DNA of 64,000 bases from Bacteroidota bacterium (GCA_039029315.1 JBCCGK010000023.1:56670-120669), one strand, 5' to 3'. Numbered from the stretch's first letter, positions 3,760 to 55,771 are shown. Numbers and translations: made by a program. Notes: a model not told the origin generated them from the sequence alone.

Positions 3760-3788
3760 TTTGGGTGAATTTGATAAATAAAACAGAG

Positions 3789-7124: not shown

Positions 7125-7222
7125 AGTAGTAGATTTAAGTTGATTGATGATTTGAACTGATAACAGTCAACATTCAAATTATTATTCCCGATCAGATTCT
7201 GAGGATGAAAAACTGATCAGAA

Positions 7223-7236
7223 TGGGGGGAATTTTT
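7223..7236 (-). promoter_or_regulatory. Conserved 14-nt motif tGGGGGGAATTTTT (copy A), about 100 bp upstream of the susC start
   Basis: An identical 14-mer recurs at 9197-9210, in the same orientation relative to the minus-strand genes. Confidence 0.4.
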
Positions 7237-7263
7237 CTAATCAAACAGCCTGAAGAAGAATCA

Positions 7264-7301
7264 GCAAGCGGATTCATCTTCCAGGAGATGAATCCGCTTG
7301 T
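7264..7301 (-). promoter_or_regulatory. Strong hairpin between GH32 stop and susC start (possible intra-operon attenuator/processing site)
   Basis: Perfect 15-bp inverted repeat caagcggattcatct / agatgaatccgcttg with a 6-nt loop (tccagg). Confidence 0.4.
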
Positions 7302-7324
7302 TCGCTGTACCCTTATGATTCGAT

Positions 7325-8986: not shown

Positions 8987-9196
8987 AAATCCAGCAGTTG
9001 AGAAAAACAAATTGACATGCAGGAAACAGAAAACACCTATTCCCATGCTTCCACATGCCAATGCTTAATGAACAAATTAAACTACAACTTAAAGCGGAAG
9101 GTCTTTTGGCTGGATAATTCCAAAGCCAGTCCTTCGAATCTCTAGTAGCAACTTGCAAAAGTCTGCCCAGAATTACGGATGAAAAACAAATCAATT

Positions 9197-9210
9197 TGGG
9201 GGGAATTTTT
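9197..9210 (-). promoter_or_regulatory. Conserved 14-nt motif tGGGGGGAATTTTT (copy B) in divergent GH32 / HTCS intergenic region
   Basis: Identical to 7223-7236. About 210 bp upstream of the GH32 start and about 70 bp upstream of the HTCS start. Confidence 0.4.
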
Positions 9211-9277
9211 TTAGCGCGTCCTCGATTTGGCTTCCCTCTATACATTCGGTATATTGGAAAAAAGCTCCAATCCGCAC

Positions 9278-12022: not shown

Positions 12023-12310
12023 AGGAGCATACATGTATGCAACAAATCTTGAGACAAATGCATCATTTTTATAGATGTCGTATAAATGAACCGAACAACA
12101 CCCCCGCACAAAAAACTCACAATCAATATTTTACACCCCAATACTCCGATTACAACAATCCTACAGGAATTAGACTATTTTTCTAAGGCTCTCCAACTAA
12201 GAAATCAGTAATTTTTGGAAATGATGGCCTCTTGCACCTAACCATTTATTCTTAGAGACTGTTTTAAAGGACATTGTTGAATATCTGACGTACATCCTTA
12301 GCTGTACTGT

Positions 12311-15345: not shown

Positions 15346-16212
15346 TTACCTTCTTCCTTGTCCTGTACTGCCAAAAATGTCCATTTGCTTACCGACAACT
15401 TCTCCGACAGCCTGATGCGCCTGCTTCATCATGATGACATAATCATCATACACTTTGCCGGCATTGTTGAGATAGCTTGTCATTGATTGTAGGGCTGCCT
15501 GAGACATGCCTGTATAGAAATTGATTTTGGCAATTCCCAGGCTGATGGCTCGCCGGAAATCTTCTGGAGAGATTCCACTTCCTCCATGCAACACCAAAGG
15601 TATCCCAGTAATATCCCTTAATTGTTTCAAGCGTTCAAAATCCAAATCTGGTTCTCCCTTGTACTTTCCATGAGAATTTCCAAATGCAATCGCGAGGAAG
15701 TCCACCTTCGTTTCCTCTACAAATATTCTGGCTTGCTCCACATTGGTATATTTGCTTGGATCTGCCTCTCCCTCCAAGTCTCCCCCTTCTGATCCACCTA
15801 CTGCTCCCAACTCTGCCTCTACACTGATCCCCAATGGATGACAGATTTCCACGACTTGTCTGGTTTGGCGAATATTTTCTTCGAATTCCAATTGAGATCC
15901 GTCAAACATAATGTTCGTAAAGCCATTGTCAATGGCTCGCTCTATGCCTTTCATGGTCAAGCCATGATCCAAATTCAGAACAATGTCGAGAGAAGTTCTG
16001 GCAGCCAGGGCTTGAATAGCAGGCACAATGTTTTCTGGGGTAACATATGGGTAGTGCGCTTCCGCAATACTCAGGATCACGGGCGAATTTTTTGCCATAG
16101 CAGTCCCTACAATGGCTTCTAGGAAATGGAGATTCACAACATTGAAGGAGCCGACCGCATAGTGCTTGTGATAGGCGCGCTCCAGGACTTGTTTCATGCT
16201 TACTAATGGCAT
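15346..16212 (-). CDS. Class II ketose-bisphosphate aldolase (fructose-/tagatose-1,6-bisphosphate aldolase family)
   Basis: 288 aa with N-terminal MPLVSMKQVLERAYHKHYAVGSFNVVNLHFLEAIV...AKNSPVILSI. Metal-binding His-rich segments (LNLDHG, VLHGGSG) are typical of class II aldolases of GatY/KbaY/FbaA size. Confidence 0.8.
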   Translation of the reverse strand: MPLVSMKQVLERAYHKHYAVGSFNVVNLHFLEAIVGTAMAKNSPVILSIAEAHYPYVTPENIVPAIQALAARTSLDIVLNLDHGLTMKGIERAIDNGFTNIMFDGSQLEFEENIRQTRQVVEICHPLGISVEAELGAVGGSEGGDLEGEADPSKYTNVEQARIFVEETKVDFLAIAFGNSHGKYKGEPDLDFERLKQLRDITGIPLVLHGGSGISPEDFRRAISLGIAKINFYTGMSQAALQSMTSYLNNAGKVYDDYVIMMKQAHQAVGEVVGKQMDIFGSTGQGRR

Positions 16213-16238
16213 CGCACAAGGGGTTAAAAATGAAATAT

Positions 16239-17372
16239 TTAATCAAGGGAAAGATAGCTTGACATACGTGGCCAGCCATCTTCAATTCTCTGGCAGACCA
16301 CTTCCCACTGTGGCACGCCACTACTTGCATCCGCTTGTTCAACACTGAAGCCCCCTACAGCTGTCGCCATGATCATGACCTCCTCTGGGGACATCCCTTT
16401 GTTCATGGCTGCCAGAAAGCCTGCGATGGTACAATCTCCGGCCCCAGTTGTCCCAGCTACATTCGCTTGAAAACAAGGAGACATTAAACGTTGGTTGGTC
16501 CAGCGGTCGATGTGAGCAGGTCTTCCCTTTCCCATCTGTGACAATCGCTCAGGATCATCCGTAGTTTGCATAAATAATCCCTGATCTCCCAACTTCAATA
16601 CAACTATGCCTGCCCCCATTTCCAGCAGCTCCTGACTGAGAGACAGCAACAATTCTTTGGAAATGATGACTGTCCCTTGTTTGTCCATCTGCTCAAACAA
16701 CGGGCGATCCATCATCAAGAGAATCTCATCATAACTGGGAAGAAAGATATCGACATGCGGAAGTACCGTTTTCATCCATGCTCTCCAGTCAGTCATTCCA
16801 GCCTCAGAACTAACATCTGGATAGGACATATCCAGGGAGGTTGTCAAGCCCACTTGCTTGATTTCTGACAGGAGTTGGGCCAAGCCCTCTCCCCCATCAG
16901 CATAGATCATCTGCATCTCGGATGGATAGCCAAAATGAAAATACCGGGCACCTTCCAAAGTCTCAGGAGAGATATCTGTTGCCCGAAAGGTATCGTTTGC
17001 GCCAGGATTGTACAGAAAACTCCGATCCATTCCAGGAGGACTGATCACAATGGAATAAGAGGTACTGTCCTCTTTCGACACGATCATTTTTTCTGTAAGA
17101 TCTGATCCATGTTTTTGCAGGATGTCCAGGATGGTTTCCCCAAAATGATCTTGTCCGATTTTACCAATAAGGCGGGTCGATATTCCCAATTGATGCAAAG
17201 CCAATCCAGTATTCGCCACAGCTCCACCAGTACTAATAATCGCAGCCCCGACATTGACCGCCTTTCCAGGCCTGACCAATTGACTCAAATCTCCTTTGTA
17301 CCCATCGAAAGGCAGGATGATGTCCAAACAAATCAGTCCAGCGACAACAATATCAGGAGAGGGATCAGTCAT
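16239..17372 (-). CDS. PfkB-family (ribokinase-like) carbohydrate kinase
   Basis: 377 aa with N-terminal GG-containing sugar-binding region (VVAGLICLDII). C-terminal PfkB signature 2 TTGAGDCTIAGFLAAM. There is a 6-bp gap to the upstream gene and a 26-bp gap to the downstream aldolase. Confidence 0.8.
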   Translation of the reverse strand: MTDPSPDIVVAGLICLDIILPFDGYKGDLSQLVRPGKAVNVGAAIISTGGAVANTGLALHQLGISTRLIGKIGQDHFGETILDILQKHGSDLTEKMIVSKEDSTSYSIVISPPGMDRSFLYNPGANDTFRATDISPETLEGARYFHFGYPSEMQMIYADGGEGLAQLLSEIKQVGLTTSLDMSYPDVSSEAGMTDWRAWMKTVLPHVDIFLPSYDEILLMMDRPLFEQMDKQGTVIISKELLLSLSQELLEMGAGIVVLKLGDQGLFMQTTDDPERLSQMGKGRPAHIDRWTNQRLMSPCFQANVAGTTGAGDCTIAGFLAAMNKGMSPEEVMIMATAVGGFSVEQADASSGVPQWEVVCQRIEDGWPRMSSYLSLD

Positions 17373-17378
17373 GTTTTT

Positions 17379-18812
17379 TTAGGTCAGAATATCATGAATG
17401 ACATGGCCATGTACATCTGTCAACCGAATGTCCCGACCTCCAAATCGGAAGGTCTGTCGAATGTGGTCGATCCCCAGCAAGTGTAGCATTGTCGCATGCA
17501 TATCGTGAATGCTCGTCCGATTTTCAACTGCCCGGTAACCATAATCATCCGTCTTGCCATAGACAGTGCCACCTTTGATGCCGGCACCGGCAAACCACAT
17601 GCTATAAGCTTGTGGATTGTGATCTCGTCCAATGGGCTCACGCATTTCTGCAAAAGGAGTTCGGCCAAACTCACCTGAAAAAATGATCAATGTTTGATCC
17701 AGTAAGCCCCGCGCTTTCAAGTCTTTGATCAGGCCAGCAATAGGTTGGTCGACAGCGTGCGCATTTTCCTCATGGCCTTGTTTCAGATTGCGATGCTGAT
17801 CCCAGCGGTCGTGACCGACGTTCGGACAGGTCAACTCAATGAATCGGACTCCACGTTCCACCAATCGTCTTGCCAGAAGACATTGAGCAGCGTAGCCTCT
17901 GCAATGATGATCTGGAGAATCCAGACCGTACAGCTTTTTGGTTGCTTCTGATTCCCCGGATAGATCCGCCAATTCAGGCACTGCAGATTGCATCCGATAG
18001 GCCAGTTCATAGTTGGAAATGGCAGATTCGATCTGATCGGCATGTCCCAGCTTGTTCAGCAAGGTCTTATCCATCCGGTCCATGAATTGCAACTTCTCCA
18101 ACTGTAGGGATTCCTTGACCTCTCGCGGGGAGATATTGGCCAGGGGTGTATCTCCTGCCCGTAAGACGGAAGCCTGAAATGTAGCAGGTAAAAAGCCATT
18201 TTTGAAATTGTCCAGGCCTCCAGGAGGTGTCAAGCCTCCATCCAGGACAACATAAGAAGGTAGATTGTCCGATTCGCTTCCCAGGCCATAGGTAACCCAG
18301 GCCCCCATGCTGGGTCTTCCTTGTATGCCGATTCCTGTATGCAAGAAATAATTGGCATTGGTATGCTCCGGGAATTCCGAATACATAGAATTGATCATGG
18401 CTATGTCATCCACGCAAGTTGCTATGTGCGGGAATAGCTCACTCATCCACATCCCTGATTCTCCATGCTGTTTGAATTCCCAGGGGCTTCTCAGCAGCTT
18501 GCCAATGCTGTTGAATTGGGTTGCGTCGACCTTGAACAAATCATAAGGACTTTTGCCATTGTCCTTGATCAGACGTGGTTTGGGGTCAAAGGAATCTACT
18601 TGTGAGATTCCTCCATCCATATAAAGGAAGATGACACTTTTGGCCTTGGGGGCAAAATGGGGAAACTTTCCACCCTCTTTTCCTACACCACTGGAAGAAT
18701 TTGCCAACAACTGATTGACAAAGGGATTTTGCATCAATCCCAACAACGCAATAGATCCAAACCCATTGCGACACAGGCTGAGCATTCGACGGCGACTGAT
18801 ATGCTTGTTCAT
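17379..18812 (-). CDS. DUF1501-family protein (sulfatase/alkaline-phosphatase-like fold) with twin-arginine signal
   Basis: Start MNKHISRRRMLSLCRNGFGSIALLGL (an RR TAT-type signal) chosen at 18812; the ORF track extends to 18953. Conserved DUF1501-type blocks, including a C-terminal GRDHNP segment. Follows a DUF1553 gene, as in the conserved DUF1553/DUF1501 pairs. Confidence 0.7.
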   Translation of the reverse strand: MNKHISRRRMLSLCRNGFGSIALLGLMQNPFVNQLLANSSSGVGKEGGKFPHFAPKAKSVIFLYMDGGISQVDSFDPKPRLIKDNGKSPYDLFKVDATQFNSIGKLLRSPWEFKQHGESGMWMSELFPHIATCVDDIAMINSMYSEFPEHTNANYFLHTGIGIQGRPSMGAWVTYGLGSESDNLPSYVVLDGGLTPPGGLDNFKNGFLPATFQASVLRAGDTPLANISPREVKESLQLEKLQFMDRMDKTLLNKLGHADQIESAISNYELAYRMQSAVPELADLSGESEATKKLYGLDSPDHHCRGYAAQCLLARRLVERGVRFIELTCPNVGHDRWDQHRNLKQGHEENAHAVDQPIAGLIKDLKARGLLDQTLIIFSGEFGRTPFAEMREPIGRDHNPQAYSMWFAGAGIKGGTVYGKTDDYGYRAVENRTSIHDMHATMLHLLGIDHIRQTFRFGGRDIRLTDVHGHVIHDILT

Positions 18813-18895
18813 ATGATTGACGGATGACGGTGGACGATGGAGGCTTTCAGTCAGCGACATTTCCGTTGACCGTAGACCGTCCTTCGTTAACCTTG

Positions 18896-21800
18896 TTATA
18901 GTAGATGGATGAATTCTTTCAGGTTGATTAAGGCATGGCAATAGTCTGCCCATAGTTTGGGATCGTTTTTGAGTTCTTCAAAGCTGGAATCATAGCCTTT
19001 GGCCTGGCTGGCAAGAAAGGCTCTGGCGGTTTCCATCTCTTCTTCGCTGGCTTTTCTGGAAAATGCCTTCATGTACATGGTTTGTACCCGCGCCTCCAGA
19101 CTTTCATCTGCTTGCTCCAGGACAGCTTTTGCCCAAATGCCTGCTTGCTCCTGAACGAATGGATCATTCATCAAGGTCAATGACTGCGCAGGCACATTGG
19201 TGGTATTCCGTTTGCCAAAGGTTGAAAAAGGAATCGGTGTATCGAAGGTCAGCATCATTGGAGGAATAAAGTTTCGCCGGACAGCAATGTAGATACTTCT
19301 ACGTCCATCTCCATCCATAGGGCCTGAGGTCCTTGGTCTCCCTCTGCCTGTCATAAAGTTCGTCAAATGCACAGGAATAGAGGGACCATACATCTCTTTG
19401 TTCAATCTACCGGATACGGCCAAAATTCCGTCACGGATGGCTTCTGCTTCCAGACGTCGTATCGGAAAATGATGCAGAAACAGATTATTGGGATCACTCT
19501 CTGCATTTTCTACGCGTGCTTCAGTAGATCGTTGGAAACTTTGGGTCATCAGAATATGCTTGATCAGACGCTTCATGGACCAATCATCCTCCTGAATTCT
19601 GATCGCCAGATAATCAAGCAATTCGGGATGACTTGGCACTTTGCCCTGCAAGCCAAAGTTATCCACTGTCTCTACAATTCCTCGGCCAAATAGATGGTGC
19701 CAAAGTCGGTTGCTGATCACACGAGCCGTCAGTGGATTCTCAGAATCAACAACAGCTTCTGCCCAGGCAAGTCGGCCACTTCCTCCTTGCGGATAGGATT
19801 CAGGGCCCGCTTCGATGAAACTAAAAAACTGATGGGGAACCTTGTCCTCACTTTGATTGTCAATGCTTCCTCGGATGAATACAGAACTGAAGACTGGATC
19901 GCCTTCTGTCAATCCAATAAAATGGGTAGAATCATAGAGCTGCTGAATGAGACCACTTTGTTTCTGAGCCAGTTTTTGGAGAAGGTCTGCTAGTTTTGTG
20001 TTCTCAGATGTTTTTGAGATTCCATGGAGAATCGGCAGATCATCAGCTTTTGTTTGTCCTTGTACCCACCTCTCCAGAACCTTCTGTTTATCCACTGTCT
20101 GATCCGCTGCGACATTCCTGTTCCACTTCATATCGGGCATTCCATTCTGATAGTTAACAGCGTATTGGACATCGATATAGTCATCAGGAGTGATCTTGTA
20201 AATATGACGTCTTTTCTCTCCATAATTGCCAGGAGTAAATTGTAGATATGCCTTATGTCCCTTGACGAGTGAGACATCAAAATAATAGGTCTTCCACTCA
20301 GGCTCATCCAGGATGGCCTCATATCGATCATAAAGCGGTCCTTGAATGACCTGGAAGTTGTCAACGATGATCCTGATCTGACCATGATGGCCTGCCGCAC
20401 GAACAGCGATTGTGTCATGCTCAACAATGAAATTGGGAGATCGAAGTACCCCTTGTACCCCTTTTCCTACTGCCCTGCTGGATACAAATCCACTTTCCAA
20501 TCCTTCAAATGTTTCTGTTCGGGAGTCGAAGTATGGTTCTCCCATCAACACACCATCTCCAAAGGCCCAACCATCTGCAAACCAACCTGCAAAATTCCCA
20601 TCTCGAAAATCTCCAATTACCTGATAGTCATCAGGATCTTTGGGTGTTTTCTCAGGGGTATCCTTGGTTTGGAGATATTGGGTCAATTGGAACACAGATT
20701 CATCAGAGAGTTTCTCCCTCCACTGCTTGCCAAGTTCTGTACGGATTTGTCCTTTTATTTCTGCCAACTGTTCCAGTTGATCTTCCTGTTGTTTGCTTCT
20801 CCTGGCAGGAATGGGTCCGATCCGCGAACTTTCAAACATCCCGTACATGGCATAGTAATCCGTGGTCGGGATGGGGTCGAATTTGTGATCGTGACAACGC
20901 GCACAAGACACAGTCAATGCCTGAAAGGTTTTGGACGTTACATCGATAACATTGTCGATTTTGTCGGCTTCTTCCAACTTGATTTTGACAGGCGCATGCT
21001 TCCCTTCTCCCAGGAAGAAATAACCGGTCCCAATGATGGATTCATTGAAGTCTTCGTCAGGGTTATAGCGGGCTTCTGTCAACATATCTCCTGCCAGATG
21101 TTCCTTGACAAACAAGTCGAAGGGCACATCCTGATTGAAGGCCCGGATCAAATAATCCCGGTATTCCCAGGGATGGCTGATATTGAAATCTCCTTCATGG
21201 CCCATCGACTCTCCGTATCGAACCAGATCCATCCAGTGTCTGGCCCACCTCTCTCCAAAGTGAGGAGATGCCAGATAATGATCGACAGCTTCCTCATAGG
21301 TGGCCACAGAGGAATCCTGTGCAAACTGCATCAATTCTTCTTGTGTGGGAGGCAAACCTGTCAACAAGTATGCGACTCTCCGAACCAGTGCAGCCTGACT
21401 CGCCCTTGCTGCAGATGTGAGGCCTTGTTCCTCCAGTTTCTGATCCACGAGATAATCAATCACCTCAGCGGGAGAAGCTTCTCTTTTTGCGCGGGGCATG
21501 GAAGGCATTTCAGGTTTGATAAACGCCCAGTGAGGTTTCCATTCGGCTCCTTGATCGATCCATTTGGTCAGCAGGGCAATCTCTCTTTCACTAAGGATTT
21601 TTTTTGCGCTGGGAGGTGGCATTTGAACCTCCGGATCATCAGAACTGATTCTGTGTAGCAGCAGGCTTTTGCGAATATTTCCCGGCACGATTGCAGCCCC
21701 CCCGTCCTGCAATTCGGCTGTGGCCCCTGCCAGATTGTCCAGCCGCAGACCTGCTTCTCTGGTACTTGAATCTGGCCCATGGCAAACGAAGCAGTTCTGT

Positions 21801-21952
21801 GAGAGAAGTGGTCGGATATGGTAGTTAAAATCTACCTTGTCCGGCAAATTCGGGGCGTCATATCCTGTAGGCCAGAACACAATGGTTCCCAGCACAATTG
21901 TCAGAGCGATTGCTCCTATGGCCCATTTTTTTTGAGTATTGCTCCAAGTCAT
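18896..21952 (-). CDS. PSCyt1/PSCyt2-PSD1 (DUF1549/DUF1553) family protein with N-terminal cytochrome-c-like CxxCH motif
   Basis: 1018 aa with N-terminal TM anchor. CFVCHG heme-binding-type motif near residue 55. Large DUF1549/DUF1553-like middle and C-terminal regions (CARCHDHKFDPI motif). Confidence 0.7.
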   Translation of the reverse strand: MTWSNTQKKWAIGAIALTIVLGTIVFWPTGYDAPNLPDKVDFNYHIRPLLSQNCFVCHGPDSSTREAGLRLDNLAGATAELQDGGAAIVPGNIRKSLLLHRISSDDPEVQMPPPSAKKILSEREIALLTKWIDQGAEWKPHWAFIKPEMPSMPRAKREASPAEVIDYLVDQKLEEQGLTSAARASQAALVRRVAYLLTGLPPTQEELMQFAQDSSVATYEEAVDHYLASPHFGERWARHWMDLVRYGESMGHEGDFNISHPWEYRDYLIRAFNQDVPFDLFVKEHLAGDMLTEARYNPDEDFNESIIGTGYFFLGEGKHAPVKIKLEEADKIDNVIDVTSKTFQALTVSCARCHDHKFDPIPTTDYYAMYGMFESSRIGPIPARRSKQQEDQLEQLAEIKGQIRTELGKQWREKLSDESVFQLTQYLQTKDTPEKTPKDPDDYQVIGDFRDGNFAGWFADGWAFGDGVLMGEPYFDSRTETFEGLESGFVSSRAVGKGVQGVLRSPNFIVEHDTIAVRAAGHHGQIRIIVDNFQVIQGPLYDRYEAILDEPEWKTYYFDVSLVKGHKAYLQFTPGNYGEKRRHIYKITPDDYIDVQYAVNYQNGMPDMKWNRNVAADQTVDKQKVLERWVQGQTKADDLPILHGISKTSENTKLADLLQKLAQKQSGLIQQLYDSTHFIGLTEGDPVFSSVFIRGSIDNQSEDKVPHQFFSFIEAGPESYPQGGSGRLAWAEAVVDSENPLTARVISNRLWHHLFGRGIVETVDNFGLQGKVPSHPELLDYLAIRIQEDDWSMKRLIKHILMTQSFQRSTEARVENAESDPNNLFLHHFPIRRLEAEAIRDGILAVSGRLNKEMYGPSIPVHLTNFMTGRGRPRTSGPMDGDGRRSIYIAVRRNFIPPMMLTFDTPIPFSTFGKRNTTNVPAQSLTLMNDPFVQEQAGIWAKAVLEQADESLEARVQTMYMKAFSRKASEEEMETARAFLASQAKGYDSSFEELKNDPKLWADYCHALINLKEFIHLL

Positions 21953-21966
21953 AGTTCTCTATATAA

Positions 21967-24918
21967 TTAGTAGCCATCCTTTTGTCCAGGTGCAAGATAC
22001 CAATAGCCCACTGCCTGAAAAAGACAGATATTACGGTCTCCCCATTGGTCTTCCTTATATTTATCGATAACAGCTGTAAATGATCGTTGGAAAGGAATAT
22101 TGTCCGCAATATGAAAGCGGCTAACGATCGTGTGTCCATTACCGTCAATCGCTGTGAAGGGTTGTGCCGCAAATGGACTGTCAAACAAGGCAAAAGGTGG
22201 TTCAGCTGACCAGGCATAGCCAATATAATCTTCACTGCCGGTTCCAAAAGTGGATGGAAATTTTTCTCCATCTACGTAGAATTTTTCGTCTCCTTCTCCC
22301 CACCACCAATTGATGTTCTTGTACCCCCATTTGCCATACCACCAGTTTTTCACTTCTTCTTCTGGCTCTTCCCATTCGTTCTGAATATGCAAACTCAATC
22401 CGCAAAATCTCCCTTTTCCCTGAGTAAGCAGTAATGGCCAGTCTTTGTCACGCCCATCGGATTGGACTTGCTCTTTATACTTCCCATCATGCCACTTGGC
22501 ATGAAAGCGCAGCAAGTCATTAGCTGACTCCTGAAGAGGAATATGAGCAATGTCCATTTTGAGTTGATGGCTCTTGCTCCCTTTGTTGACCAGTTCAATT
22601 TTGGCTTTTTGGGAGAACGGCATATACCAATTGGAATACAGATGTCCGGGAAGCGCCCCAATGGGATAGCTCCGATAGGGATAAACATTCGGATAGGTCC
22701 CAAAATACAAGCCGATCGGGGCAAAGACTGCTGCTTCGGACTCATCGTCCCAGGTAATTTTGAGCCAAATATTCTTCAGCAGTTCTTCTTTTTCCTGCTC
22801 AGAATCATAGACATACTTGTCATAGTTGATGCTAAAATGTGTGATGGCGCGGTTTCCGGTCAAAACAGAAACGGTCTTTGTTGCCCCAGCACCTAGCTTT
22901 GCTCGCTTTTGCAGGATGGCTTCCTTGTCGTAAGACTTTCTGTCATAGCCACGGTTGGCCAGAACCCGATCAGCTTCAGCTAGTGCAATACAGGCATCCT
23001 TGTAGTAGGTTCCATCAAATTTGGGCAAACGCGTAGTCAGGGGATAACTGGAATGGGTAACGTGATAATACATGCCCCAGCCTTCTTCCAGGACGATCTT
23101 ACAATGTCGTTGGTAGGGAATTGGAATGAAGCGATTGCGCCCACGCGAGAGGGTTGGCATCAGATTCGGCAGGTTGATGGAAGGGATGCCGGGCAAACTT
23201 TTGGGCGGGGGGCCATCATCATTGATTTTGTCAAAAAAATCTGAAAAGGGCATGTCCACGACTGGCTCATCGGCAAAGTCGATATAGATCTTGATATGAC
23301 CAGTCTGAGCCAGTGCGCTCCACACACGCCAGATAACCCCGGGTCCTGTCTTGTCAAAAATGACAATCCCATTCCCTTCTTTGCGCACAAATCCTGTCCC
23401 ATCTCTATTTGCAGTCCAATTGACATAGGTCTCTGTCTGAGGATCATATTGAGACTTGCGATCATAGCTTGAAAAATTCCCGGAGGCTTCTGCAGCCACA
23501 GGTGGGACAGCGAGCTGCTCCATATCATACAGCTTGTTGACCAAATCTGGATAACTGTATCGCTTCAGTTCCGGCCCCAGATAGATTCCCTCCTTTTCTT
23601 TATCGTCTGGCCAGCTAAAGGCCTTGATCTTCTGCTGGAGTTGATTCACAATGTCTGGATGTTGTGCTGCCAGATTCTTCAATTCTCCTATGTCTTCATC
23701 AAGATTGTATAGTTCCGTCTCTTGAGATCCCATGTCATCCAGATATCCGTGAAACTTCTGAAGATTCGGCAAGCGAAGTTTCCATTTTCCCATCCTCACT
23801 GCCTGCAATTCATTTCGACTGAAGTAATAGAAATGATCTCTGGCTCCGGCTTCATTCCTCCCCAATAGCAAATCTGTCTGATCTACGCCATCAATGACGC
23901 GATCTTCTGGCACAGGATATCCTGTCAGATTGGCAAAGGTGGGCATGAAATCAAGGGTAGAGAAGATTGCATCGCTGACACGCCCTGCGGGAATATTTTC
24001 AGGCCATCGGGCAATGGTGGGAACCCGGATCCCCCCCTCATAGGTTGAGCCTTTTGCCCCTCGCAAGGGACCAGGCGATCCCCAGGCCAATGCACCATCG
24101 TGTTTTTTGCTCAGGCTTTCGACATGATTGCTCCAAGGGCCATTGTCTGTTGTGAAAAGGACAAGTGTATTTTCTTTCAAGCCCAATTCCTCCAATGCAT
24201 CCAGCAGGCGTCCGGTATGGAAATCCAGTTCTTCAACGGCATCTCCATATAGGCCTTCACGGGACTTGCCCTTGAATTCAGGCGAGGCATCTATGACAGA
24301 ATGCAACATACTATGAGCAAGATAGAGTAAAAAGGGCTTGTCTTTGTTTTCTTCTAAAAATCCGATGGCCTTATCTGTATATATTCTGGTAATACTGGCC
24401 ATGTCCTCTGTTCTTCCAACCTCTTCATTGTTGTGGTGATACACCATCCACTCATTGTCATTGGCACCGAGCGTTCCCCAATAGTAGTCAAAGCCCTTGG
24501 CATTGGGCATGCGATCAATGATGGCGGCCCGATTAGACACATCCCATTTGCCGACACAGCCCGTTGTATACCCATTCTCTTGCATGAGTTCTGCCAAGGT
24601 GATTTCGCTGGCAGGCATGGACCAACCCCCACTTCTGACTGGATAGCGCCCGGTCAACAATGCAGAACGAGATGGTCCACACACAACCTGGGCGTAGGCA
24701 CTGGTAAATCGGGTCCCTTCTGTAGCCAGTCGATCAATGTTAGGGGTGCGAATCTTGGAGCCAAAACAACTTAGATCTCCATAGCCCTGGTCATCGGTGA
24801 ATATGATCAGAATATTGGGGCGCTCCTCCTGCTTGCTTGTCTGTGCGTTCAGGAACGGAAGGCAGACAATGAGTTTCAGGAGGAGAAATAGTAGTATATG
24901 CTTGTTCAAACACATCAT
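21967..24918 (-). CDS. Sulfatase (formylglycine-type) fused to a C-terminal DUF2961/GH172-like domain
   Basis: The N-terminal ~470 aa carry the sulfatase signature CGPSRSALLTGRYP and NILIIFTDDQGYGDL. The C-terminal ~500 aa contain WWGEGDEKFYVDGEKFPSTFGTGSEDYIGYAWS and FHAKWHDG...DWPLLL, which I recognise as DUF2961 (GH172) hallmarks. Confidence 0.7.
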   Translation of the reverse strand: MMCLNKHILLFLLLKLIVCLPFLNAQTSKQEERPNILIIFTDDQGYGDLSCFGSKIRTPNIDRLATEGTRFTSAYAQVVCGPSRSALLTGRYPVRSGGWSMPASEITLAELMQENGYTTGCVGKWDVSNRAAIIDRMPNAKGFDYYWGTLGANDNEWMVYHHNNEEVGRTEDMASITRIYTDKAIGFLEENKDKPFLLYLAHSMLHSVIDASPEFKGKSREGLYGDAVEELDFHTGRLLDALEELGLKENTLVLFTTDNGPWSNHVESLSKKHDGALAWGSPGPLRGAKGSTYEGGIRVPTIARWPENIPAGRVSDAIFSTLDFMPTFANLTGYPVPEDRVIDGVDQTDLLLGRNEAGARDHFYYFSRNELQAVRMGKWKLRLPNLQKFHGYLDDMGSQETELYNLDEDIGELKNLAAQHPDIVNQLQQKIKAFSWPDDKEKEGIYLGPELKRYSYPDLVNKLYDMEQLAVPPVAAEASGNFSSYDRKSQYDPQTETYVNWTANRDGTGFVRKEGNGIVIFDKTGPGVIWRVWSALAQTGHIKIYIDFADEPVVDMPFSDFFDKINDDGPPPKSLPGIPSINLPNLMPTLSRGRNRFIPIPYQRHCKIVLEEGWGMYYHVTHSSYPLTTRLPKFDGTYYKDACIALAEADRVLANRGYDRKSYDKEAILQKRAKLGAGATKTVSVLTGNRAITHFSINYDKYVYDSEQEKEELLKNIWLKITWDDESEAAVFAPIGLYFGTYPNVYPYRSYPIGALPGHLYSNWYMPFSQKAKIELVNKGSKSHQLKMDIAHIPLQESANDLLRFHAKWHDGKYKEQVQSDGRDKDWPLLLTQGKGRFCGLSLHIQNEWEEPEEEVKNWWYGKWGYKNINWWWGEGDEKFYVDGEKFPSTFGTGSEDYIGYAWSAEPPFALFDSPFAAQPFTAIDGNGHTIVSRFHIADNIPFQRSFTAVIDKYKEDQWGDRNICLFQAVGYWYLAPGQKDGY

Positions 24919-25029
24919 ATGGCAGCTTATCTTGAGGAAATGATCCTGAATAAATCTAAAATATTAGATATAAGATAGAGAGAGGAGAAGGGGCATATTT
25001 TGAGCAAATATTAACGATTAGGGCCTCCT

Positions 25030-25908
25030 CTAAGTTCTCGGGATAAAGAGATTTCGTCCTTCAAATCGTTTGGTACCATTGAGATAACTAAAATATTTTC
25101 GGCACTCACAGGACAAGTATTCAATATCAACTGGTGTAAATGAACGTTTGGCTTCCGGCCAGAGAGTTGCTTGCTTGGCAATCATTTTCTCCGCCACCTC
25201 ATGATGATCCGCACAGCCCAAATGATGCTGCAAACGATCCAGATAGGGAATGGCACCAATTCCACTTGGAACAGGGCTATCCGGGCGAATCAAATCTGGA
25301 AAAAACCAAGATACATCAATCAAGGCCATGAAAATGGGAAAATCGTTTTCCATCTGAAAAGTCGCATTGATCGTCTCAGTAGCGGTCACTACATTGCCAT
25401 CAGCAGTCTGAATGGCTTCCAGCAAGAAGGGTACGATCTGCGGAAACAACTCTGTACAGGCAGTGAATCGATCATAGCTTTTTCCTTCCCATTGCAATGG
25501 AACGACCGGATACACTTCTGAACACCACTGGTCTCCAAGATCTCTGAGTCGGGCTTGCAAGGCTAAAGGATGTGTTAACATCTCTGCCCCTATCATGTTC
25601 AGGGTCAGATGATGATTGCACCAACGAGCAAAGAACAAGGCATGAACCAAATCAGACCTCTGATCTTTCACAGCTTGGCAGAACTGTACCACCGCTCTGG
25701 AGCCCTTATCATCTTCACGAAACACATTGAGGAAACGCCCCTGCTGGAATACCGGATCATCTGTCCAGGGAGGCGGGTGTCCACTTTCTCGTCGGATTCG
25801 GATTTGTTCCCGCTCTTTGCACCAATCAAAAAAAGCGTGCACCGGGTCTTCTATCACCAGTCCATCCAGGGCAGTTGCATATGGATTGTTTAGCTTGATC
25901 GCATTCAT
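25030..25908 (-). CDS. Hypothetical protein; possible resemblance to aGPT-Pplase-like (DNA base hypermodification) family
   Basis: 292 aa with no signal peptide. The N-terminal block W-x-KEREQIRIRRESGHPPPWTDDPVFQQGRFLNVFREDDKGSR matches, from memory, the W..ER..I...G.P.PWT.D.I....F.NV.RE.D motif of alpha-glutamyl/putrescinyl-thymine pyrophosphorylase-like proteins. This could not be verified here. Confidence 0.35.
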   Translation of the reverse strand: MNAIKLNNPYATALDGLVIEDPVHAFFDWCKEREQIRIRRESGHPPPWTDDPVFQQGRFLNVFREDDKGSRAVVQFCQAVKDQRSDLVHALFFARWCNHHLTLNMIGAEMLTHPLALQARLRDLGDQWCSEVYPVVPLQWEGKSYDRFTACTELFPQIVPFLLEAIQTADGNVVTATETINATFQMENDFPIFMALIDVSWFFPDLIRPDSPVPSGIGAIPYLDRLQHHLGCADHHEVAEKMIAKQATLWPEAKRSFTPVDIEYLSCECRKYFSYLNGTKRFEGRNLFIPRT

Positions 25909-26092
25909 AATTTGTTCAGCTTGCTTGCGGATCTCGAGTCAGCCACGCTTCCGATCGAAGGATGACACTTGAAGCTCGAAGAGAGCAGGAATAAGAGCCA
26001 CGAGCGACTCATTTGATCGAGGATTCATTGCTGTCCGTGGAAGGCGTCAATCAGTGCAACATCCTCTGCCCTTCTTCCTGCCAAATCAAGAA

Positions 26093-27679
26093 TCAGTATA
26101 CGTTGGTTCTGGCCATTTGCCAAACTCTGGCATGTGATATCTTGATTGATTTTGATCCAGTGAACAGTTTTACCTGATTGCTCTCTCTCAATTCTGGATA
26201 GACCACTTGGGTCATACACTGTCTTCCATTGGCGAATACCTCAATGATTGACTGATCTATAAAGATATTCAGCTTAAGGGATTCGCCTTTTTTGAGTTCG
26301 AATGGTGCGCGTTGCTCAGAAACGGGTTCTGTAAATCCTTCCAATTGAGGCTCGCCCATACAGTTGGAGCGAAAGGTCTGGCTTCCTTTTGCACTGATGG
26401 AGGAGTTGGAAAAATCGATCACGAGTTCTTTCGATCCAGGATCGTAGCGAATGATTGTTTCTTCACGGCCATCAGGGGAGCAAAATACTTTGACACCATA
26501 GGTATCTTTGATCGTTCCGTCCAATTCTACCTCTATCTCGAGTGCTGTCCCATCTAGATCCATCAGGTGCTCTGTATCGGGAGAAAGCACAAGATCTGTC
26601 TCCTCGGTCCCAGCCAGACGGAGCTGTTTGAATTCTTCTGGAGGCTGAATCCGCAACACACCATCCGAAGGCAGGCTCAAGGCTCTGGGCATGCTCATGA
26701 TGCCAGACCATCCAAAGTCTTCGAGGTGATCGGGCTTGCGTTCCAGTACCCATCCCCAAATGAGGTTCCGTCCCGAATCATCGACCATCTGTTCCGGGGC
26801 AAAGAAGGTCCCACCCGGCCAATTCATTCGATGATGCTGTTCGATGGTGTATTGTCCGTTTTTGAAGGTCCCGATGTAGTATTGTGTTCCCAGATTATGG
26901 CTGATAAAGAGCAGCATCTGTTTGTCACCAATGTTGAAGAAGTCGGGGCAGGATAGGTCTTCAAAATCGAGTCGTTTTCGGTCATCTTGCGGAATCAGAT
27001 CCCCCAAATATTCCCACTCCATCATGTCTTTGGATCGAAAAAAGCCTGCAATTTTCCCTCCTGAAATCTGGTAGTAGTGATCGGTTTCCTTGTCATACCA
27101 GCCCTCAGGGTCCCAGGCTCGATATTTTTCATACATAGGGTCTCCTTTCTCCGGGCTTCTCAGCACAGGATTTCCTTCAAATTTTTTCCATTCCCTCAAA
27201 TCTGCATCTGTCGAATATGCTACCAGGTTGGTGGCAGATCCTTGCCCATGATACATGATATGCGGAATCCCCTCTCTGGACAGAAACGCTCCTCCACTGA
27301 AAATGCCTTTCTCTATGTCTCCATCCTTCACATCCAGCATATCCGGATACAACTGCCAATGCAACAAATCTGTGCTGACAGCATGTCCCCAGTAGTGTTC
27401 TCGAAATCCCTTGTGATAAGCTTGGTAAATGAAGCCAAGATGATATTTGCCATTCCAGTATATTCCGCCATTGGGGTCGAAAGGATAGGCCATTCCTTCT
27501 GGCGCTACAAAATGATAGATCGGACGATGCGGGTCAGACATGATTCGCTGCCGAAGCTTGCGGGATTGCATCACCTTGTCGAGTTCATTGGTCGTGGTCT
27601 TCTGCCCCATCAGTTCGGGACCATGCAGAGCCAAACAGGCTGTAAGCGTCAACAAAGAGAGTAGTCGTAGTAGTAGCAT
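26093..27679 (-). CDS. Divergent GH32-family (clan GH-J) glycoside hydrolase, secreted
   Basis: Signal peptide MLLLRLLSLLTLTACLALHG. FDPNGG plus KYHLGF (nucleophile block), HAVSTDLLHW, RAWDPEGWY (RDP-like) and EDLSCPDFF (EC block). Confidence 0.7.
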   Translation of the reverse strand: MLLLRLLSLLTLTACLALHGPELMGQKTTTNELDKVMQSRKLRQRIMSDPHRPIYHFVAPEGMAYPFDPNGGIYWNGKYHLGFIYQAYHKGFREHYWGHAVSTDLLHWQLYPDMLDVKDGDIEKGIFSGGAFLSREGIPHIMYHGQGSATNLVAYSTDADLREWKKFEGNPVLRSPEKGDPMYEKYRAWDPEGWYDKETDHYYQISGGKIAGFFRSKDMMEWEYLGDLIPQDDRKRLDFEDLSCPDFFNIGDKQMLLFISHNLGTQYYIGTFKNGQYTIEQHHRMNWPGGTFFAPEQMVDDSGRNLIWGWVLERKPDHLEDFGWSGIMSMPRALSLPSDGVLRIQPPEEFKQLRLAGTEETDLVLSPDTEHLMDLDGTALEIEVELDGTIKDTYGVKVFCSPDGREETIIRYDPGSKELVIDFSNSSISAKGSQTFRSNCMGEPQLEGFTEPVSEQRAPFELKKGESLKLNIFIDQSIIEVFANGRQCMTQVVYPELRESNQVKLFTGSKSIKISHARVWQMARTNVY

Positions 27680-27725
27680 ATTTGTGGGAGTTATAGAAGC
27701 ATCATTTCCAGACTGCGGAAGGATG

Positions 27726-28889: not shown

Positions 28890-28950
28890 ATTGTATAGGT
28901 GAAATTCTTGATTGCATGACCTGATTGAAAGGTACACATCATCCATGAAA

Positions 28951-28986
28951 TCTTGGGGGAAATACTGGTCTTTCTTGGGGGAAATT
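28951..28986 (-). promoter_or_regulatory. Perfect 13-bp direct repeats tcttgggggaaat spaced 23 bp apart, upstream of the LamG/T9SS gene
   Basis: Copies at 28951-28963 and 28974-28986, about 65-100 bp upstream of the start at 28889. G6-A-T core related to the tGGGGGGAATTTTT motif at 7223 and 9197. Confidence 0.35.
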
Positions 28987-29480
28987 GTTTTCGACTCCAG
29001 ACAAATCATTCCAAAACTACTGATTCTCGTTCATCTGATGAGGACAAAGGGCAGCACCAGCAGCCTGATCAGCCAAGCCTGACTCATCTTTTTCGCTGAC
29101 ATTCTCCTTGCAAAATATATGTAGCAATCACGCGATAACCTCTGCAGGCTCCACAAAAAAACAAGGGTCTTTGACAATGTTAATGGAGCTGGTAATAAAT
29201 TCTTGCTTGCTCGCTTATGACCTCCCTCGGGTCGCATTTTTCCTTCAGGAGAAACAACCCGCCATCCCACAATGTTGCTTCCACAACTGTTGTCAAAGAA
29301 CCAAAAATAAAAAAGGAATTCGGCGCAGAGACAGCAGACAAGCAATATTTCTCTTGTTTACAAAAACCCATTTCTCAACATTTTTATATCAGGAAACGAC
29401 TGTCCTGCTTTGCTCACCTATTTGGAAGGTTCTCAGGCATTGAATATTTTCAATAGAAACTGCTCAACCAACTATTCGTC

Positions 29481-35892: not shown

Positions 35893-36175
35893 AGTTGTTG
35901 GCAACAAACGATCAGATAAGCGGCATATGCGTCCTTTGCAGGTTGCACACCATGGAGCCATACAGAAACTCTCATCAGGTCTTTGGCTGTCCGTTTGCTA
36001 CAATACAAATATGAGGAGGCACTGCGCAATCTATTTGCGTAGATAAAAAAAAGTGGCGATTTTTATGAAAATTTTTGGAAAAGGCGGTTTTTGGGCCAAA
36101 AGAGGAGGTTTTTTTTCGTTCCTTGAATCGCACAATACTCGCCTCACTTTTCAAAGAGAGTCAAACCCTTATTCT

Positions 36176-49513: not shown

Positions 49514-49544
49514 GGGTAAGTCATTCGACGTTTTTCCTGTTTTT

Positions 49545-55742: not shown

Positions 55743-55771
55743 AAATTCTCTTTCTCCATTGTCGAAGAAAA

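What the first reader, a model, noticed from the sequence alone, without database searches (positions are those of the whole stretch)
21967..24918. Sulfatase catalytic domain fused to a DUF2961/GH172-like C-terminal domain in a fructan-rich neighbourhood
The 983-aa protein has a canonical formylglycine sulfatase N-terminus (CGPSR). It continues for about 500 aa with a segment containing WWGEGDEKFYVDGE and GTGSEDYIGYAWS, which I recognise as hallmarks of DUF2961. That family was recently defined as GH172 (difructose-dianhydride I synthase/hydrolase and alpha-D-arabinofuranosidase activities). A GH172-like module is thematically consistent with the three GH32 genes nearby, as part of fructan or fructose-anhydride metabolism. 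Its covalent fusion to a sulfatase is unexpected, because fructans are not sulfated, and it suggests either a bifunctional enzyme or an unknown sulfated substrate.
Basis: partly seen in the sequence, partly recalled or inferred. Interest (0 to 1): 0.65.

Follow-up and report, generated by a model that had tools for sequence, protein, structure and literature searches.

The report
One-off sulfatase–GH172 fusion in fructan locus
A Bacteroidota genome encodes one exported protein that joins a complete sulfatase to a complete GH172 furanosidase inside a fructose-sensing sugar-utilisation operon; the fusion looks real but occurs in only one sample, so it is a curious lead rather than evidence for a new pathway.

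Summary
Window 21967-24918 (minus strand) is one 983-aa ORF. It has a signal peptide, an S1 formylglycine sulfatase (aa 32-435, CGPSR), an 18-aa linker, and a complete "long-form" GH172 (aa 454-983). The GH172 part keeps both catalytic glutamates (E875, E896), and its model matches only GH172 structures.

The junction is clean and in frame, composition is uniform, and a second assembler gave an identical contig. The locus is a fructan-type PUL: SusC/D, three GH32 genes, two regulators with BT1754-like sensor domains, a PfkB kinase and a ketose-bisphosphate aldolase.

The GH172-GH32 link is conserved: 31 of 80 genome loci have GH32 within 10 kb. The sulfatase link is not. No other protein in the searched databases carries both halves. 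Nearby sulfatases in related loci belong to other subfamilies, and one is frameshifted.

The fused sulfatase belongs to a distinct clade with Asp in place of a conserved active-site His (GKWD). That clade fuses to many partners and is linked to PSCyt/DUF1501 genes, which also lie directly downstream here.

Best reading: a real, lineage-specific bimodular periplasmic enzyme with an unknown substrate. It is a new domain combination of a known kind. Interest is moderate.

The parts
21967..24918 (-). Whole fusion ORF, 983 aa plus stop codon (stop at 21967-21969)
24844..24918 (-). Predicted Sec signal peptide, aa 1-25 (MMCLNKHILLFLLLKLIVCLPFLNA|QT). Assigned by inspection only.
   Evidence: sequence; aligned N-termini of homologs
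23614..24825 (-). S1 formylglycine-type sulfatase module, aa 32-435, of the 'GKWD' clade
   Evidence: Pfam; PDB sulfatases at E 3e-72 and weaker; 60-68% identical relatives
24667..24681 (-). Formylglycine motif CGPSR (aa 80-84), followed by SALLTGR
24532..24552 (-). GKWDVSN (aa 123-129). Asp126 replaces the His found in all five best solved sulfatases (GKWH).
23560..23613 (-). Linker, aa 436-453 (SWPDDKEKEGIYLGPELK), with no homology to either parent family. It takes the place of the signal peptide of stand-alone GH172 proteins.
   Evidence: alignment A1
21970..23559 (-). Complete long-form GH172 module, aa 454-983 (GH172_1st + GH172_dom + GH172_2nd), with a double jelly-roll fold
22207..22308 (-). 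GH172 catalytic segment. E875 (WWWG-E-G) is the acid/base equivalent. E896-D897 (GS-ED-Y) are the nucleophile equivalent and the residue after it. W903 is also conserved. The E-to-E spacing is 21 residues, as in alphaFFase1 (E270/E291).
18896..21952 (-). PSCyt1-PSCyt2-PSD1 protein, starting 14 nt downstream of the fusion gene on the same strand
   Evidence: orthologous context
17379..18953 (-). DUF1501 protein (NCBI start gives 477 aa), the partner of the PSCyt gene
15346..17372 (-). PfkB-family sugar kinase (16239-17372) and ketose-1,6-bisphosphate aldolase (15346-16212), at the end of the same co-directional gene string
25030..27679 (-). Upstream co-directional genes: GH32 (26093-27679) and a 292-aa HMUDK_hel-like protein (25030-25908)
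   Evidence: same order in the Logan contig
2017..15019 (.). Rest of the fructan-type PUL: SusD (2017-3759, -), SusC (3789-7124, -), GH32 (7325-9061, -), and two hybrid two-component regulators with BT1754-like sensor domains (9227-12022 and 12311-15019, +)

Best explanation
This is a genuine, lineage-specific gene fusion that encodes one exported, probably periplasmic, protein with two complete catalytic modules.

Shown:
- A GKWD-clade S1 sulfatase module ends at its usual domain boundary.
- It is joined through an 18-aa linker to the first residues of a mature long-form GH172, whose own signal peptide has been lost.
- The gene sits in a co-directional string: GH32, a small unknown gene, the fusion, PSCyt/PSD1, DUF1501, a PfkB kinase and a ketose-bisphosphate aldolase.
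- Next to this string are SusC/D and two regulators whose sensor domains resemble BT1754.

Inferred:
- The GH172 module is a retaining alpha-D-furanosidase. It would handle alpha-fructofuranosyl or difructose-anhydride-type linkages (or alpha-D-arabinofuranosyl linkages) that the beta-specific GH32 enzymes cannot cut.
- It would feed fructose to the kinase and aldolase.
- The sulfatase module, after formylglycine maturation, would remove a sulfate ester from the same imported oligosaccharide, or from a co-occurring one. Tethering would place the two activities side by side.
- The substrate of the sulfatase, and whether it really belongs to the fructan pathway, is not established.
For: Domains and catalytic residues:
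- Both Pfam matches are far above their cut-offs.
- Sulfatase positions DD, C-x-P-x-R, K, the second His, DN and K all align with human steryl sulfatase.
- In GH172, E875, E896, D897, W872/873 and W903 align with alphaFFase1 E270, E291, D292, W267 and W298. Mutagenesis showed those residues to be essential (PMC8605356).

Fold:
- The C-half model has pLDDT 86 and pTM 0.90.
- Its seven best PDB matches are all GH172 structures, at E 1e-21 to 1e-16.

The fusion is real:
- The junction lies exactly at both domain boundaries (alignment A1).
- The linker is unique sequence, not a repeat shared by two loci.
- GC and GC3 are uniform across both halves and the neighbouring genes.
- A Logan contig is 100% identical over 7580 bp.

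Fructan context:
- The window has three GH32 genes and SusC/D.
- Both regulators have PDB 2X7X as top hit, at E 7e-81 and 2e-70.
- GH32 lies within 10 kb in 31 of 80 long-form GH172 loci, and in the three closest loci looked up individually.

Some recurrence of sulfatases in such loci:
- L009 (the same stretch as L002), L010/L174 and L175 each have one.

Precedent for bimodular sulfatase-glycosidase proteins:
- PDB 6HR5 is a rhamnosidase/sulfatase.
- P0015 is a sulfatase fused to GH116 domains.
Against: - The fusion is a singleton. Only the window's own sequence carries both halves among all fetched proteins. No metagenome locus spans the junction.
- Both assemblies may derive from the same reads.
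- No orthologous sulfatase accompanies GH172 or GH32 in relatives. Only 7 of 80 loci have a sulfatase within 10 kb, at 39% identity or less.
- The neighbouring sulfatases belong to three subfamilies, and the one in L010/L174 is frameshifted.
- No natural sulfated fructan was found in the literature.
- The sulfatase clade has Asp in place of a conserved catalytic His. No member of the clade has been characterised, so sulfatase activity is itself unproven.
- No other sulfatase gene or maturation enzyme was found among the window ORFs scanned (five ORFs at 58512-63048 and one at 48776-49513 were not scanned).
- Whether an N-terminal 45-kDa module is compatible with the trimer-based assemblies of GH172 enzymes is unknown. 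The full-length model was uninformative.
Confidence: 0.55

Rival explanations
1. The fusion is real but functionally incidental. A young, neutral joining of two neighbouring genes produced it, and the two modules work independently. The sulfatase would belong with the PSCyt/DUF1501 module or with general desulfation, not with GH172 or fructan breakdown.
For: - The fusion occurs once only.
- GKWD-clade sulfatases fuse to many unrelated partners: beta-lactamase-fold hydrolases, GH116, a GH32N-like domain, ThuA plus a metallophosphatase, and DUF1501.
- A 63%-identical relative lies in a PSCyt-PSD1 / DUF1501 / SDR / sulfatase string (L089).
- He et al. report that sulfatase genes neighbour PSCyt genes in Verrucomicrobia (PMC5615132).
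- PSCyt and DUF1501 lie directly downstream of the fusion gene here.
- Sulfatases near GH172 in relatives are not orthologous to each other, and one is decayed.
Against: - The ORF is intact over 983 codons, and all catalytic motifs in both halves are kept.
- The junction removes exactly the redundant signal peptide.
- A sulfatase of some kind recurs in four related GH32/GH172/PSCyt loci.
Confidence: 0.25
2. The N-terminal module is not a sulfatase in function. With His126 replaced by Asp, it would act on another ester (a phosphate or phosphonate monoester or diester), or serve as a binding or scaffolding module.
For: - 103 of 104 relatives at 45% identity or more have Asp at this position. Most below 45% have His, and all five best solved sulfatases have His.
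- There are weak Pfam and NCBIfam matches to phosphodiesterase and PehA-type hydrolases of the same superfamily.
- No clade member has a solved structure among the five best PDB matches whose alignments were printed, and I found no characterised member.
Against: - The formylglycine motif CGPSR-SALLTGR and every other catalytic position are conserved.
- The best matches by far are true sulfatases, at E 3e-72.
- From my own knowledge, this position also varies in some bona fide sulfatases. I did not test that here.
Confidence: 0.1
3. The fusion is an artefact: an assembly chimera or a sequencing error that merged two genes.
For: - It is seen in one sample only (SRR22824298) and in one MAG.
- The two assemblies may share reads.
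- It is absent from every other collection searched.
Against: - Two different assemblers gave identical sequence over 7.6 kb spanning the junction.
- The joint is in frame and exactly at both domain boundaries.
- It contains 54 nt of unique linker rather than a shared repeat.
- No remnant of an intergenic region or a signal peptide is present.
- GC and GC3 are uniform.
Confidence: 0.07

Closest known systems
alphaFFase1 (BBDE_2040) of Bifidobacterium dentium, the founding GH172 member (difructose dianhydride I synthase/hydrolase and alpha-D-arabinofuranosidase; PDB 7V1V)
   Same: - Double jelly-roll fold (Foldseek E 3e-17).
- The Glu/Glu catalytic pair has the same 21-residue spacing.
- The -1 subsite residues D292, W267 and W298 are conserved.
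- Both are linked to fructose chemistry.
   Different: - Only about 22% identical.
- The window module is a 'long form' of about 530 aa with an extra GH172_dom segment.
- It is exported, whereas BBDE_2040 lacks a signal sequence (PMC8812541).
- It is fused to a sulfatase.
- At the position where arabinofuranosidase-type members have Cys and alphaFFase1 has Gly, it has Ser904. Its specificity is therefore unknown.
GH172 exo-alpha-D-arabinofuranosidases (Dysgonomonas gadei PDB 8AH3; Microbacterium ExoMA2 PDB 8IC8) and BACUNI_00161 (PDB 4KQ7)
   Same: These are the best structural and sequence matches (E 1e-21 to 4e-17; E 3e-19). The catalytic motifs are the same.
   Different: - Identity is 21-23%.
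- Those enzymes are about 375 aa, single-module, and sit in D-arabinan loci.
- The window module and its relatives sit beside GH32 genes.
Stand-alone long-form GH172 proteins of Bacteroidota, Paenibacillus and Chloroflexota (for example P0121 from a Cyclobacteriaceae MAG, 73% identical)
   Same: They are collinear from the first mature residue to the C-terminus. They share the GH32 neighbourhood.
   Different: They carry their own signal peptide and no sulfatase. None has been characterised.
Bimodular sulfatase-glycosidase enzymes of marine PULs (for example the GH78 rhamnosidase/sulfatase, PDB 6HR5) and GKWD-clade fusions such as P0015 (sulfatase + GH116)
   Same: One exported polypeptide combines an S1 sulfatase with a glycoside hydrolase and is encoded in a polysaccharide utilisation locus.
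   Different: - The glycosidase family differs.
- Those loci target glycans known to be sulfated or are rich in sulfatases. P0086, for example, lies in a locus with at least six other sulfatase genes (L005).
- Here the sulfatase module is the only sulfatase found among the window ORFs scanned, and the locus looks like a fructan locus.
The Bacteroides thetaiotaomicron fructan PUL, controlled by the fructose-sensing hybrid two-component system BT1754 (sensor domain PDB 2X7X). The identity of 2X7X is from my own knowledge.
   Same: SusC/D, several GH32 genes, a PfkB-type kinase, and regulators whose sensor domains match 2X7X at E 7e-81 and 2e-70.
   Different: The window locus adds the sulfatase-GH172 fusion, a PSCyt/DUF1501 pair, a ketose-bisphosphate aldolase and a second regulator.

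Membership tests
S1 formylglycine-dependent sulfatases (Pfam PF00884) | Profile match above the curated threshold over the whole catalytic domain | tested here: met
   PF00884 matches aa 34-334 against profile positions 1-301 of 301, at 194 bits against a cut-off of 25. The best PDB matches are sulfatases at E 3e-72.
S1 formylglycine-dependent sulfatases (Pfam PF00884) | C/S-x-P-x-R formylglycine motif with the downstream LTG-R/K | tested here: met
   CGPSRSALLTGR begins at aa 80.
S1 formylglycine-dependent sulfatases (Pfam PF00884) | Full set of conserved active-site residues (metal-binding Asp/Asp and Asp/Asn, two Lys, two His) | tested here: inconclusive
   DD (aa 42-43), K124, H206, D258-N259 and K289 align with steryl sulfatase. 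The first His (GKWH) is Asp126. That change is fixed in this clade: 103 of 104 relatives at 45% identity or more carry it.
S1 formylglycine-dependent sulfatases (Pfam PF00884) | Post-translational formylglycine formation and sulfate-ester hydrolysis | not testable with these tools
   This needs biochemistry. No maturation enzyme was found among the window ORFs scanned.
Glycoside hydrolase family 172 (DUF2961, PF11175) | Profile match above the curated threshold | tested here: met
   PF11175 matches aa 714-974 against profile positions 1-234 of 235, at 212 bits against a cut-off of 27. The precomputed architecture is GH172_1st, GH172_dom and GH172_2nd.
Glycoside hydrolase family 172 (DUF2961, PF11175) | Double jelly-roll fold | tested here: met
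   The model has pLDDT 86 and pTM 0.90. The top seven Foldseek PDB matches are GH172 structures with probability 1.00, followed by double jelly-roll capsid proteins.
Glycoside hydrolase family 172 (DUF2961, PF11175) | Catalytic nucleophile Glu and acid/base Glu (alphaFFase1 E291 and E270), with D292, W267 and W298 in the -1 subsite | tested here: met
   E896, E875, D897, W872/873 and W903 align to those residues. They are invariant in 52 long-form sequences.
Glycoside hydrolase family 172 (DUF2961, PF11175) | Trimer-based oligomer, with the +1 subsite contributed by a neighbouring subunit | not testable with these tools
   Only monomer prediction is available, and the full-length model was poor.
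Glycoside hydrolase family 172 (DUF2961, PF11175) | Retaining alpha-D-fructofuranosidase or alpha-D-arabinofuranosidase activity | not testable with these tools
   No long-form member has been characterised. Ser904 lies at the position that differs between the Fruf-active enzyme (Gly) and the Araf-type proteins (Cys).
Bacteroidota fructan utilisation locus (BT1754 type) | SusC/SusD pair, GH32 enzymes, and a hybrid two-component regulator with a fructose-binding periplasmic-binding-protein sensor | tested here: met
   SusC/D and three GH32 genes are present. Both regulators match the 2X7X sensor domain over its full length, at E 7e-81 and 2e-70.
Bacteroidota fructan utilisation locus (BT1754 type) | A dedicated fructokinase | tested here: inconclusive
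   The PfkB-family kinase at 16239-17372 reaches no NCBIfam equivalog cut-off. Its best weak matches are to 5-dehydro-2-deoxygluconokinase, ribokinase, tagatose kinase and fructokinase.
Bimodular sulfatase-glycoside hydrolase enzymes | Both modules in one uninterrupted ORF, confirmed independently of a single assembly | tested here: met
   A second assembler gave identical DNA, and the junction is clean. The caveat is that both assemblies come from one sample.
Bimodular sulfatase-glycoside hydrolase enzymes | The two modules act on one sulfated glycan | not testable with these tools
   The literature search found no natural sulfated fructan. Context evidence is mixed.

The most novel reading that the evidence does not exclude
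Some Bacteroidota fructan-type loci (GH32, long-form GH172, PSCyt/DUF1501 and a sulfatase) target a natural sulfated fructose-containing glycan or sulfated fructo-oligosaccharide or anhydride that has not been described. Under this reading the sulfatase-GH172 fusion is a Rosetta-stone link between desulfation and alpha-furanoside cleavage. The PSCyt/DUF1501 pair, which has no known function, would be part of the same pathway.
Probability: 0.12. Interest if true: 0.8.

Novelty: new variant of a known kind. Interest (0 to 1): 0.4.

Why it matters
If both modules are active on one substrate, this protein would be the first evidence for sulfate esters on a fructan-type or furanoside-containing glycan. 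It would also give a single construct for testing two uncharacterised groups at once: the long-form GH172 enzymes that accompany GH32 in many phyla, and the GKWD sulfatase clade that is common in Planctomycetota and Verrucomicrobiota.

The conserved presence of a PSCyt/DUF1501 pair in these loci also offers a defined carbohydrate context for two large families of unknown function.

If the fusion is incidental, it is only one more example of sulfatase modules being shuffled onto carbohydrate-active enzymes.

Tried and rejected
- **Wrong reading frame.** The first PDB search of the C-half used coordinates out of frame. It was repeated correctly.
- **Is the sulfatase near GH172 in the Cyclobacteriaceae locus L002 the unfused counterpart?** Rejected. 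It is 39% identical and has the canonical GKWH motif.
- **Is P0086 (sulfatase, GH32N-like domain, sulfatase) a second sulfatase-fructan link?** Rejected. It lies in a sulfatase-rich locus with heparinase-like and rhamnosidase genes, and its GH32N match is only partial.
- **Did the sulfatase arrive with the PSCyt/DUF1501 module from Planctomycetota or Verrucomicrobiota?** Not supported. The closest DUF1501 relatives are Bacteroidota at 70-84% identity, whereas the sulfatase's named closest relatives are planctomycetal or verrucomicrobial at 68% or less.
- **Is there a conserved 'fructan-locus sulfatase'?** Rejected. The L175, L002 and L010 sulfatases are 24-47% identical to each other.
- **L174 and L010 as independent evidence.** Rejected. 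Their DNA is 100% identical over the 5.3-kb overlap.
- **Full-length structure prediction, to see whether the halves pack together.** The first alignment, A3, was mis-registered. The corrected A4 gave pLDDT 58 and pTM 0.42, which is uninformative.
- **Promoter and terminator scan.** Counts were at chance level.
- **Search for a difructose-anhydride-forming enzyme among the unassigned neighbours (29481-31232, 27726-29009, 25030-25908).** None has a solved relative.
- **Literature on natural sulfated fructans.** Only chemically sulfated levan or inulin was found.
- **Literature on sulfatases in GH32 loci.** Nothing specific was found.
- **Residue limit.** One Pfam call exceeded the limit and was repeated.
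Full report
**1.

Window 21967-24918 carries one uninterrupted ORF on the minus strand, 983 aa from the first ATG. The cited motifs are present: CGPSR at aa 80-84, WWWGEGDEKFYVDGE from aa 871, and GTGSEDYIGYAWS at aa 892-904.

Pfam gives Sulfatase (aa 34-334, E 5e-57), with SGSH_C and Sulfatase_C extending to aa 434. It also gives DUF2961 (aa 714-974, E 1.4e-62). Both are far above their curated cut-offs.

The three GH32 genes are real, at 7325-9061, 26093-27679 and 31481-32992.

**2. The C-terminal half is a whole enzyme, not a domain fragment**

Searched alone, aa 441-983 match stand-alone proteins of about 550 aa over 97-99% of their length, at up to 73% identity. These come from Bacteroidota, Paenibacillus, Chloroflexota and fungi. 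Some are named GH172 by their sources. Their precomputed architecture is GH172_1st, GH172_dom and GH172_2nd.

Against solved structures, the only sequence matches are the four GH172 entries 4KQ7, 7V1V, 8AH3 and 8IC8.

A model built from 52 homologs is confident (pLDDT 86, pTM 0.90). Its seven best Foldseek matches in the PDB are all GH172 structures (E 1e-21 to 1e-16, probability 1.00), followed by viral double jelly-roll capsid proteins. Identity to the solved members is only 21-23%, so this is a distant "long-form" subfamily.

Kashima et al. identified E291 as nucleophile and E270 as acid/base in alphaFFase1, with D292, W267 and W298 in the -1 subsite (PMC8605356). These align with E896, E875, D897, W872/873 and W903 here, with the same 21-residue spacing. 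They are invariant across the long-form alignment.

One position may affect specificity. BACUNI_00161 has a Cys there that is said to clash with fructofuranose, and alphaFFase1 has Gly. This protein has Ser904, so its specificity cannot be read off.

**3. The N-terminal half is a complete S1 sulfatase of an unusual clade**

The best solved relatives are human steryl sulfatase (E 3e-72), bacterial GalNAc-6-sulfatases, a carrageenan sulfatase and arylsulfatase A.

The formylglycine motif and the downstream LTGR are conserved. So are the metal-binding DD and DN pairs, both lysines and the second histidine.

The first active-site histidine is different. It reads GKWH in all five best solved structures and GKWD here. 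This is a clade character. 103 of 104 fetched relatives at 45% identity or more have Asp, while most below 45% have His.

Members of this clade at 52-68% identity come mostly from Planctomycetota and Verrucomicrobiota, where a source names them. They occur as proteins of about 590 aa, or fused to many different modules:
- beta-lactamase-fold hydrolases;
- GH116 domains;
- a GH32N-like propeller;
- ThuA plus a metallophosphatase;
- DUF1501.

In the beta-lactamase fusions included in the alignment, the partner begins where the linker begins here.

**4. The fusion looks real**

Sulfatase homology ends near aa 435-445. GH172 homology begins at Y454-Y456 (YSYPDLV against LTYPDLV in stand-alone proteins). 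That is exactly where stand-alone proteins start their mature chain after the signal peptide.

The 18 residues between them match neither family. They are hydrophilic, so they are not a leftover signal peptide.

GC and GC3 are the same in both halves and in the neighbouring genes.

A contig assembled by the Logan pipeline from run SRR22824298 is 100% identical to window 21691-29270 and carries the same gene order. A chimera would be expected to join within shared sequence. A sequencing error would leave intergenic and signal-peptide remnants. Neither is seen.

The remaining weakness is that both assemblies probably use the same reads.

**5. The fusion is a singleton**

- The full-length query against 5.8 billion clusters found only itself covering both halves (NCBI MEM7369680.1, a Bacteroidota MAG).
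- None of the 120 best GH172 relatives has a sulfatase domain.
- A full HMMER pass over 1.84 billion representatives listed no two-half protein. Scanning all 387 fetched proteins with each half separately confirmed this.
- One caveat applies to the representative search. The query itself is not a representative there, so fusions can hide inside clusters.
- A scan of metagenome contigs, including a junction-specific pattern, found no locus spanning both halves.
- The published survey of DUF2961 architectures lists fusions to carbohydrate-binding modules, GH32, GH43, a lyase, a lipase, an amidohydrolase and a peptidase, but none to a sulfatase (PMC8812541).

**6. Context**

The gene lies in a co-directional string with very short gaps:
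- GH32;
- a 292-aa HMUDK_hel-like protein;
- the fusion;
- a PSCyt1-PSCyt2-PSD1 protein, 14 nt downstream;
- DUF1501;
- a PfkB-family kinase;
- a ketose-1,6-bisphosphate aldolase.

Nearby are SusC/D, another GH32 and two hybrid two-component regulators. The sensor domains of both regulators match PDB 2X7X at E 7e-81 and 2e-70. From my own knowledge, 2X7X is the fructose-binding domain of BT1754. This is therefore a fructan-type utilisation locus.

No other sulfatase and no maturation enzyme was found among the window ORFs scanned (six ORFs of 200 aa or more in 48776-63048 were not scanned).

**7. Which associations are conserved?**

In 80 genome loci encoding long-form GH172 proteins:
- GH32 lies within 10 kb in 31 of 80 loci, and in 22 of the 52 loci of 15 kb or more. 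These span Bacteroidota, Paenibacillus, Clostridium, Bacillus and SAR202.
- A 20-kb span is roughly 0.4% of a 5-Mb genome, and genomes carry few GH32 genes. Chance would therefore give a few per cent at most.
- Together with the GH32-DUF2961 fusions in the literature, this supports a role for long-form GH172 in fructose-glycan breakdown.
- A sulfatase lies within 10 kb in only 7 of 80 loci, never from the GKWD clade, and at 39% identity or less.

Among the closest Bacteroidota relatives:
- L009 (the same stretch as L002) has a canonical sulfatase about 3 kb away.
- L010/L174 has one directly downstream of GH172, but it is frameshifted twice.
- L175 has PSCyt, DUF1501, a sulfatase and GH32 in a row.
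- These sulfatases are 24-47% identical to each other, so no orthologous partner exists.
- In sulfatase-rich marine Bacteroidota, this frequency is not clearly above background.

**8. The PSCyt/DUF1501 link**

A 63%-identical GKWD sulfatase sits in a PSCyt-PSD1 / DUF1501 / SDR / sulfatase string (L089). DUF1501-sulfatase fusions also exist (P0022 and P0028). He et al. noted sulfatase genes next to PSCyt genes in Verrucomicrobia (PMC5615132).

The sulfatase module may therefore belong functionally with the PSCyt/DUF1501 pair downstream rather than with GH172.

The DUF1501 protein's closest relatives are Bacteroidota at 70-84% identity. All three of their contexts that I examined contain GH32 or GH172. 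This PSCyt/DUF1501 pair is thus itself a conserved part of these fructan-type loci, which may be the more general lead.

**9. Mechanism**

Shown:
- one exported polypeptide with two complete modules;
- intact catalytic motifs in both modules;
- an operon with fructose-type sensing and ketose catabolism.

Inferred:
- The GH172 module cleaves alpha-furanosidic linkages that GH32 cannot. These could be alpha-fructofuranosyl or difructose-anhydride-type linkages, or possibly alpha-D-arabinofuranosyl linkages.
- The sulfatase removes a sulfate ester from the same or a co-imported oligosaccharide.
- The products enter the PfkB and aldolase steps.

I put 0.55 on this bimodular-enzyme reading, with the shared-substrate step the weakest part. 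The rivals are:
- a real but incidental fusion with independent modules (0.25);
- a sulfatase-like module with another activity, because of the His-to-Asp change (0.10);
- an artefact (0.07).

**10. Novelty and score**

Both families are known, and bimodular sulfatase-glycosidase enzymes are known (PDB 6HR5; P0015). This particular combination, and a sulfatase inside a fructan-type locus, have not been described in the sources I could search.

It is a new variant of a known kind. Because it is a singleton without functional data, I score interest at 0.40. The most novel reading still open is a natural sulfated fructose-containing glycan targeted by GH32, GH172, a sulfatase and PSCyt/DUF1501 loci. 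I give it about 0.12 probability, and it would merit about 0.8 if true.

Noticed in passing
window 17379-21952 (-); L173, L174, L175: The PSCyt1-PSCyt2-PSD1 and DUF1501 gene pair has no known function. Here it has its closest relatives (70-84% identity) in Bacteroidota. In all three related contexts examined, the pair sits with GH32 and/or long-form GH172 genes. It appears to be a conserved part of fructan-type loci in Saprospiraceae- and Cyclobacteriaceae-like bacteria.
   Followed up: partly
window 24532-24552 (-), aa 123-129: The fused sulfatase belongs to a clade with GKWD instead of the canonical GKWH. Asp is fixed in 103 of 104 relatives at 45% identity or more. The same clade is fused to beta-lactamase-fold hydrolases, GH116, a GH32N-like domain, ThuA plus a metallophosphatase, and DUF1501 in Planctomycetota and Verrucomicrobiota. 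No solved structure of the clade appeared among the five best PDB matches whose alignments were printed.
   Followed up: partly
window 25030-25908 (-): A 292-aa protein directly upstream of the fusion gene, inside the sugar operon, matches only the helical domain of 5-hmdU DNA kinase (HMUDK_hel, aa 24-106). It has no NCBIfam or PDB match. The same gene order is seen in the Logan contig. It is an odd member of a carbohydrate locus.
   Followed up: no
window 9227-15019 (+): Two tandem hybrid two-component regulators both have sensor domains like BT1754 (PDB 2X7X, E 2e-70 and 7e-81). The duplication suggests two related but distinct sugar signals.
   Followed up: partly
L010 2465-3884; L174 7592-8996: A canonical S1 sulfatase directly downstream of a stand-alone long-form GH172 is split over three reading frames. 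The two MAG records (GCA_027592755.1 and GCA_027624155.1) are 100% identical in DNA over their 5.3-kb overlap. This is either a pseudogene or a shared assembly error.
   Followed up: partly
window 27726-31232: Two unassigned proteins flank the GH32 genes. One is a 427-aa Laminin_G_3 protein (27726-29009, -). The other is a 583-aa protein with only a type IX secretion sorting tail (29481-31232, +). Neither has a solved relative. Other long-form GH172 proteins are fused to Laminin_G_3 modules.
   Followed up: partly
L005 10001-14302 (P0086): A 1433-aa protein has the order sulfatase, GH32N-like propeller, sulfatase. It lies in a locus with at least six other sulfatase genes, a heparinase II/III-like gene and a GH78 rhamnosidase. 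It shows the same GKWD sulfatase clade attached to a different glycosidase fold.
   Followed up: partly
window 36053-37897 (+): A 614-aa protein combines WYL and WCX domains, typical of ligand-sensing regulators, with a C-terminal PhyH-type dioxygenase domain. This is an unusual pairing.
   Followed up: no
window 15346-17372 (-): The aldolase just passes the NCBIfam 'ketose 1,6-bisphosphate aldolase' equivalog cut-off (407.3 bits against 406). The adjacent PfkB kinase fits no equivalog. The phosphorylated ketose handled here may therefore not be plain fructose.
   Followed up: partly
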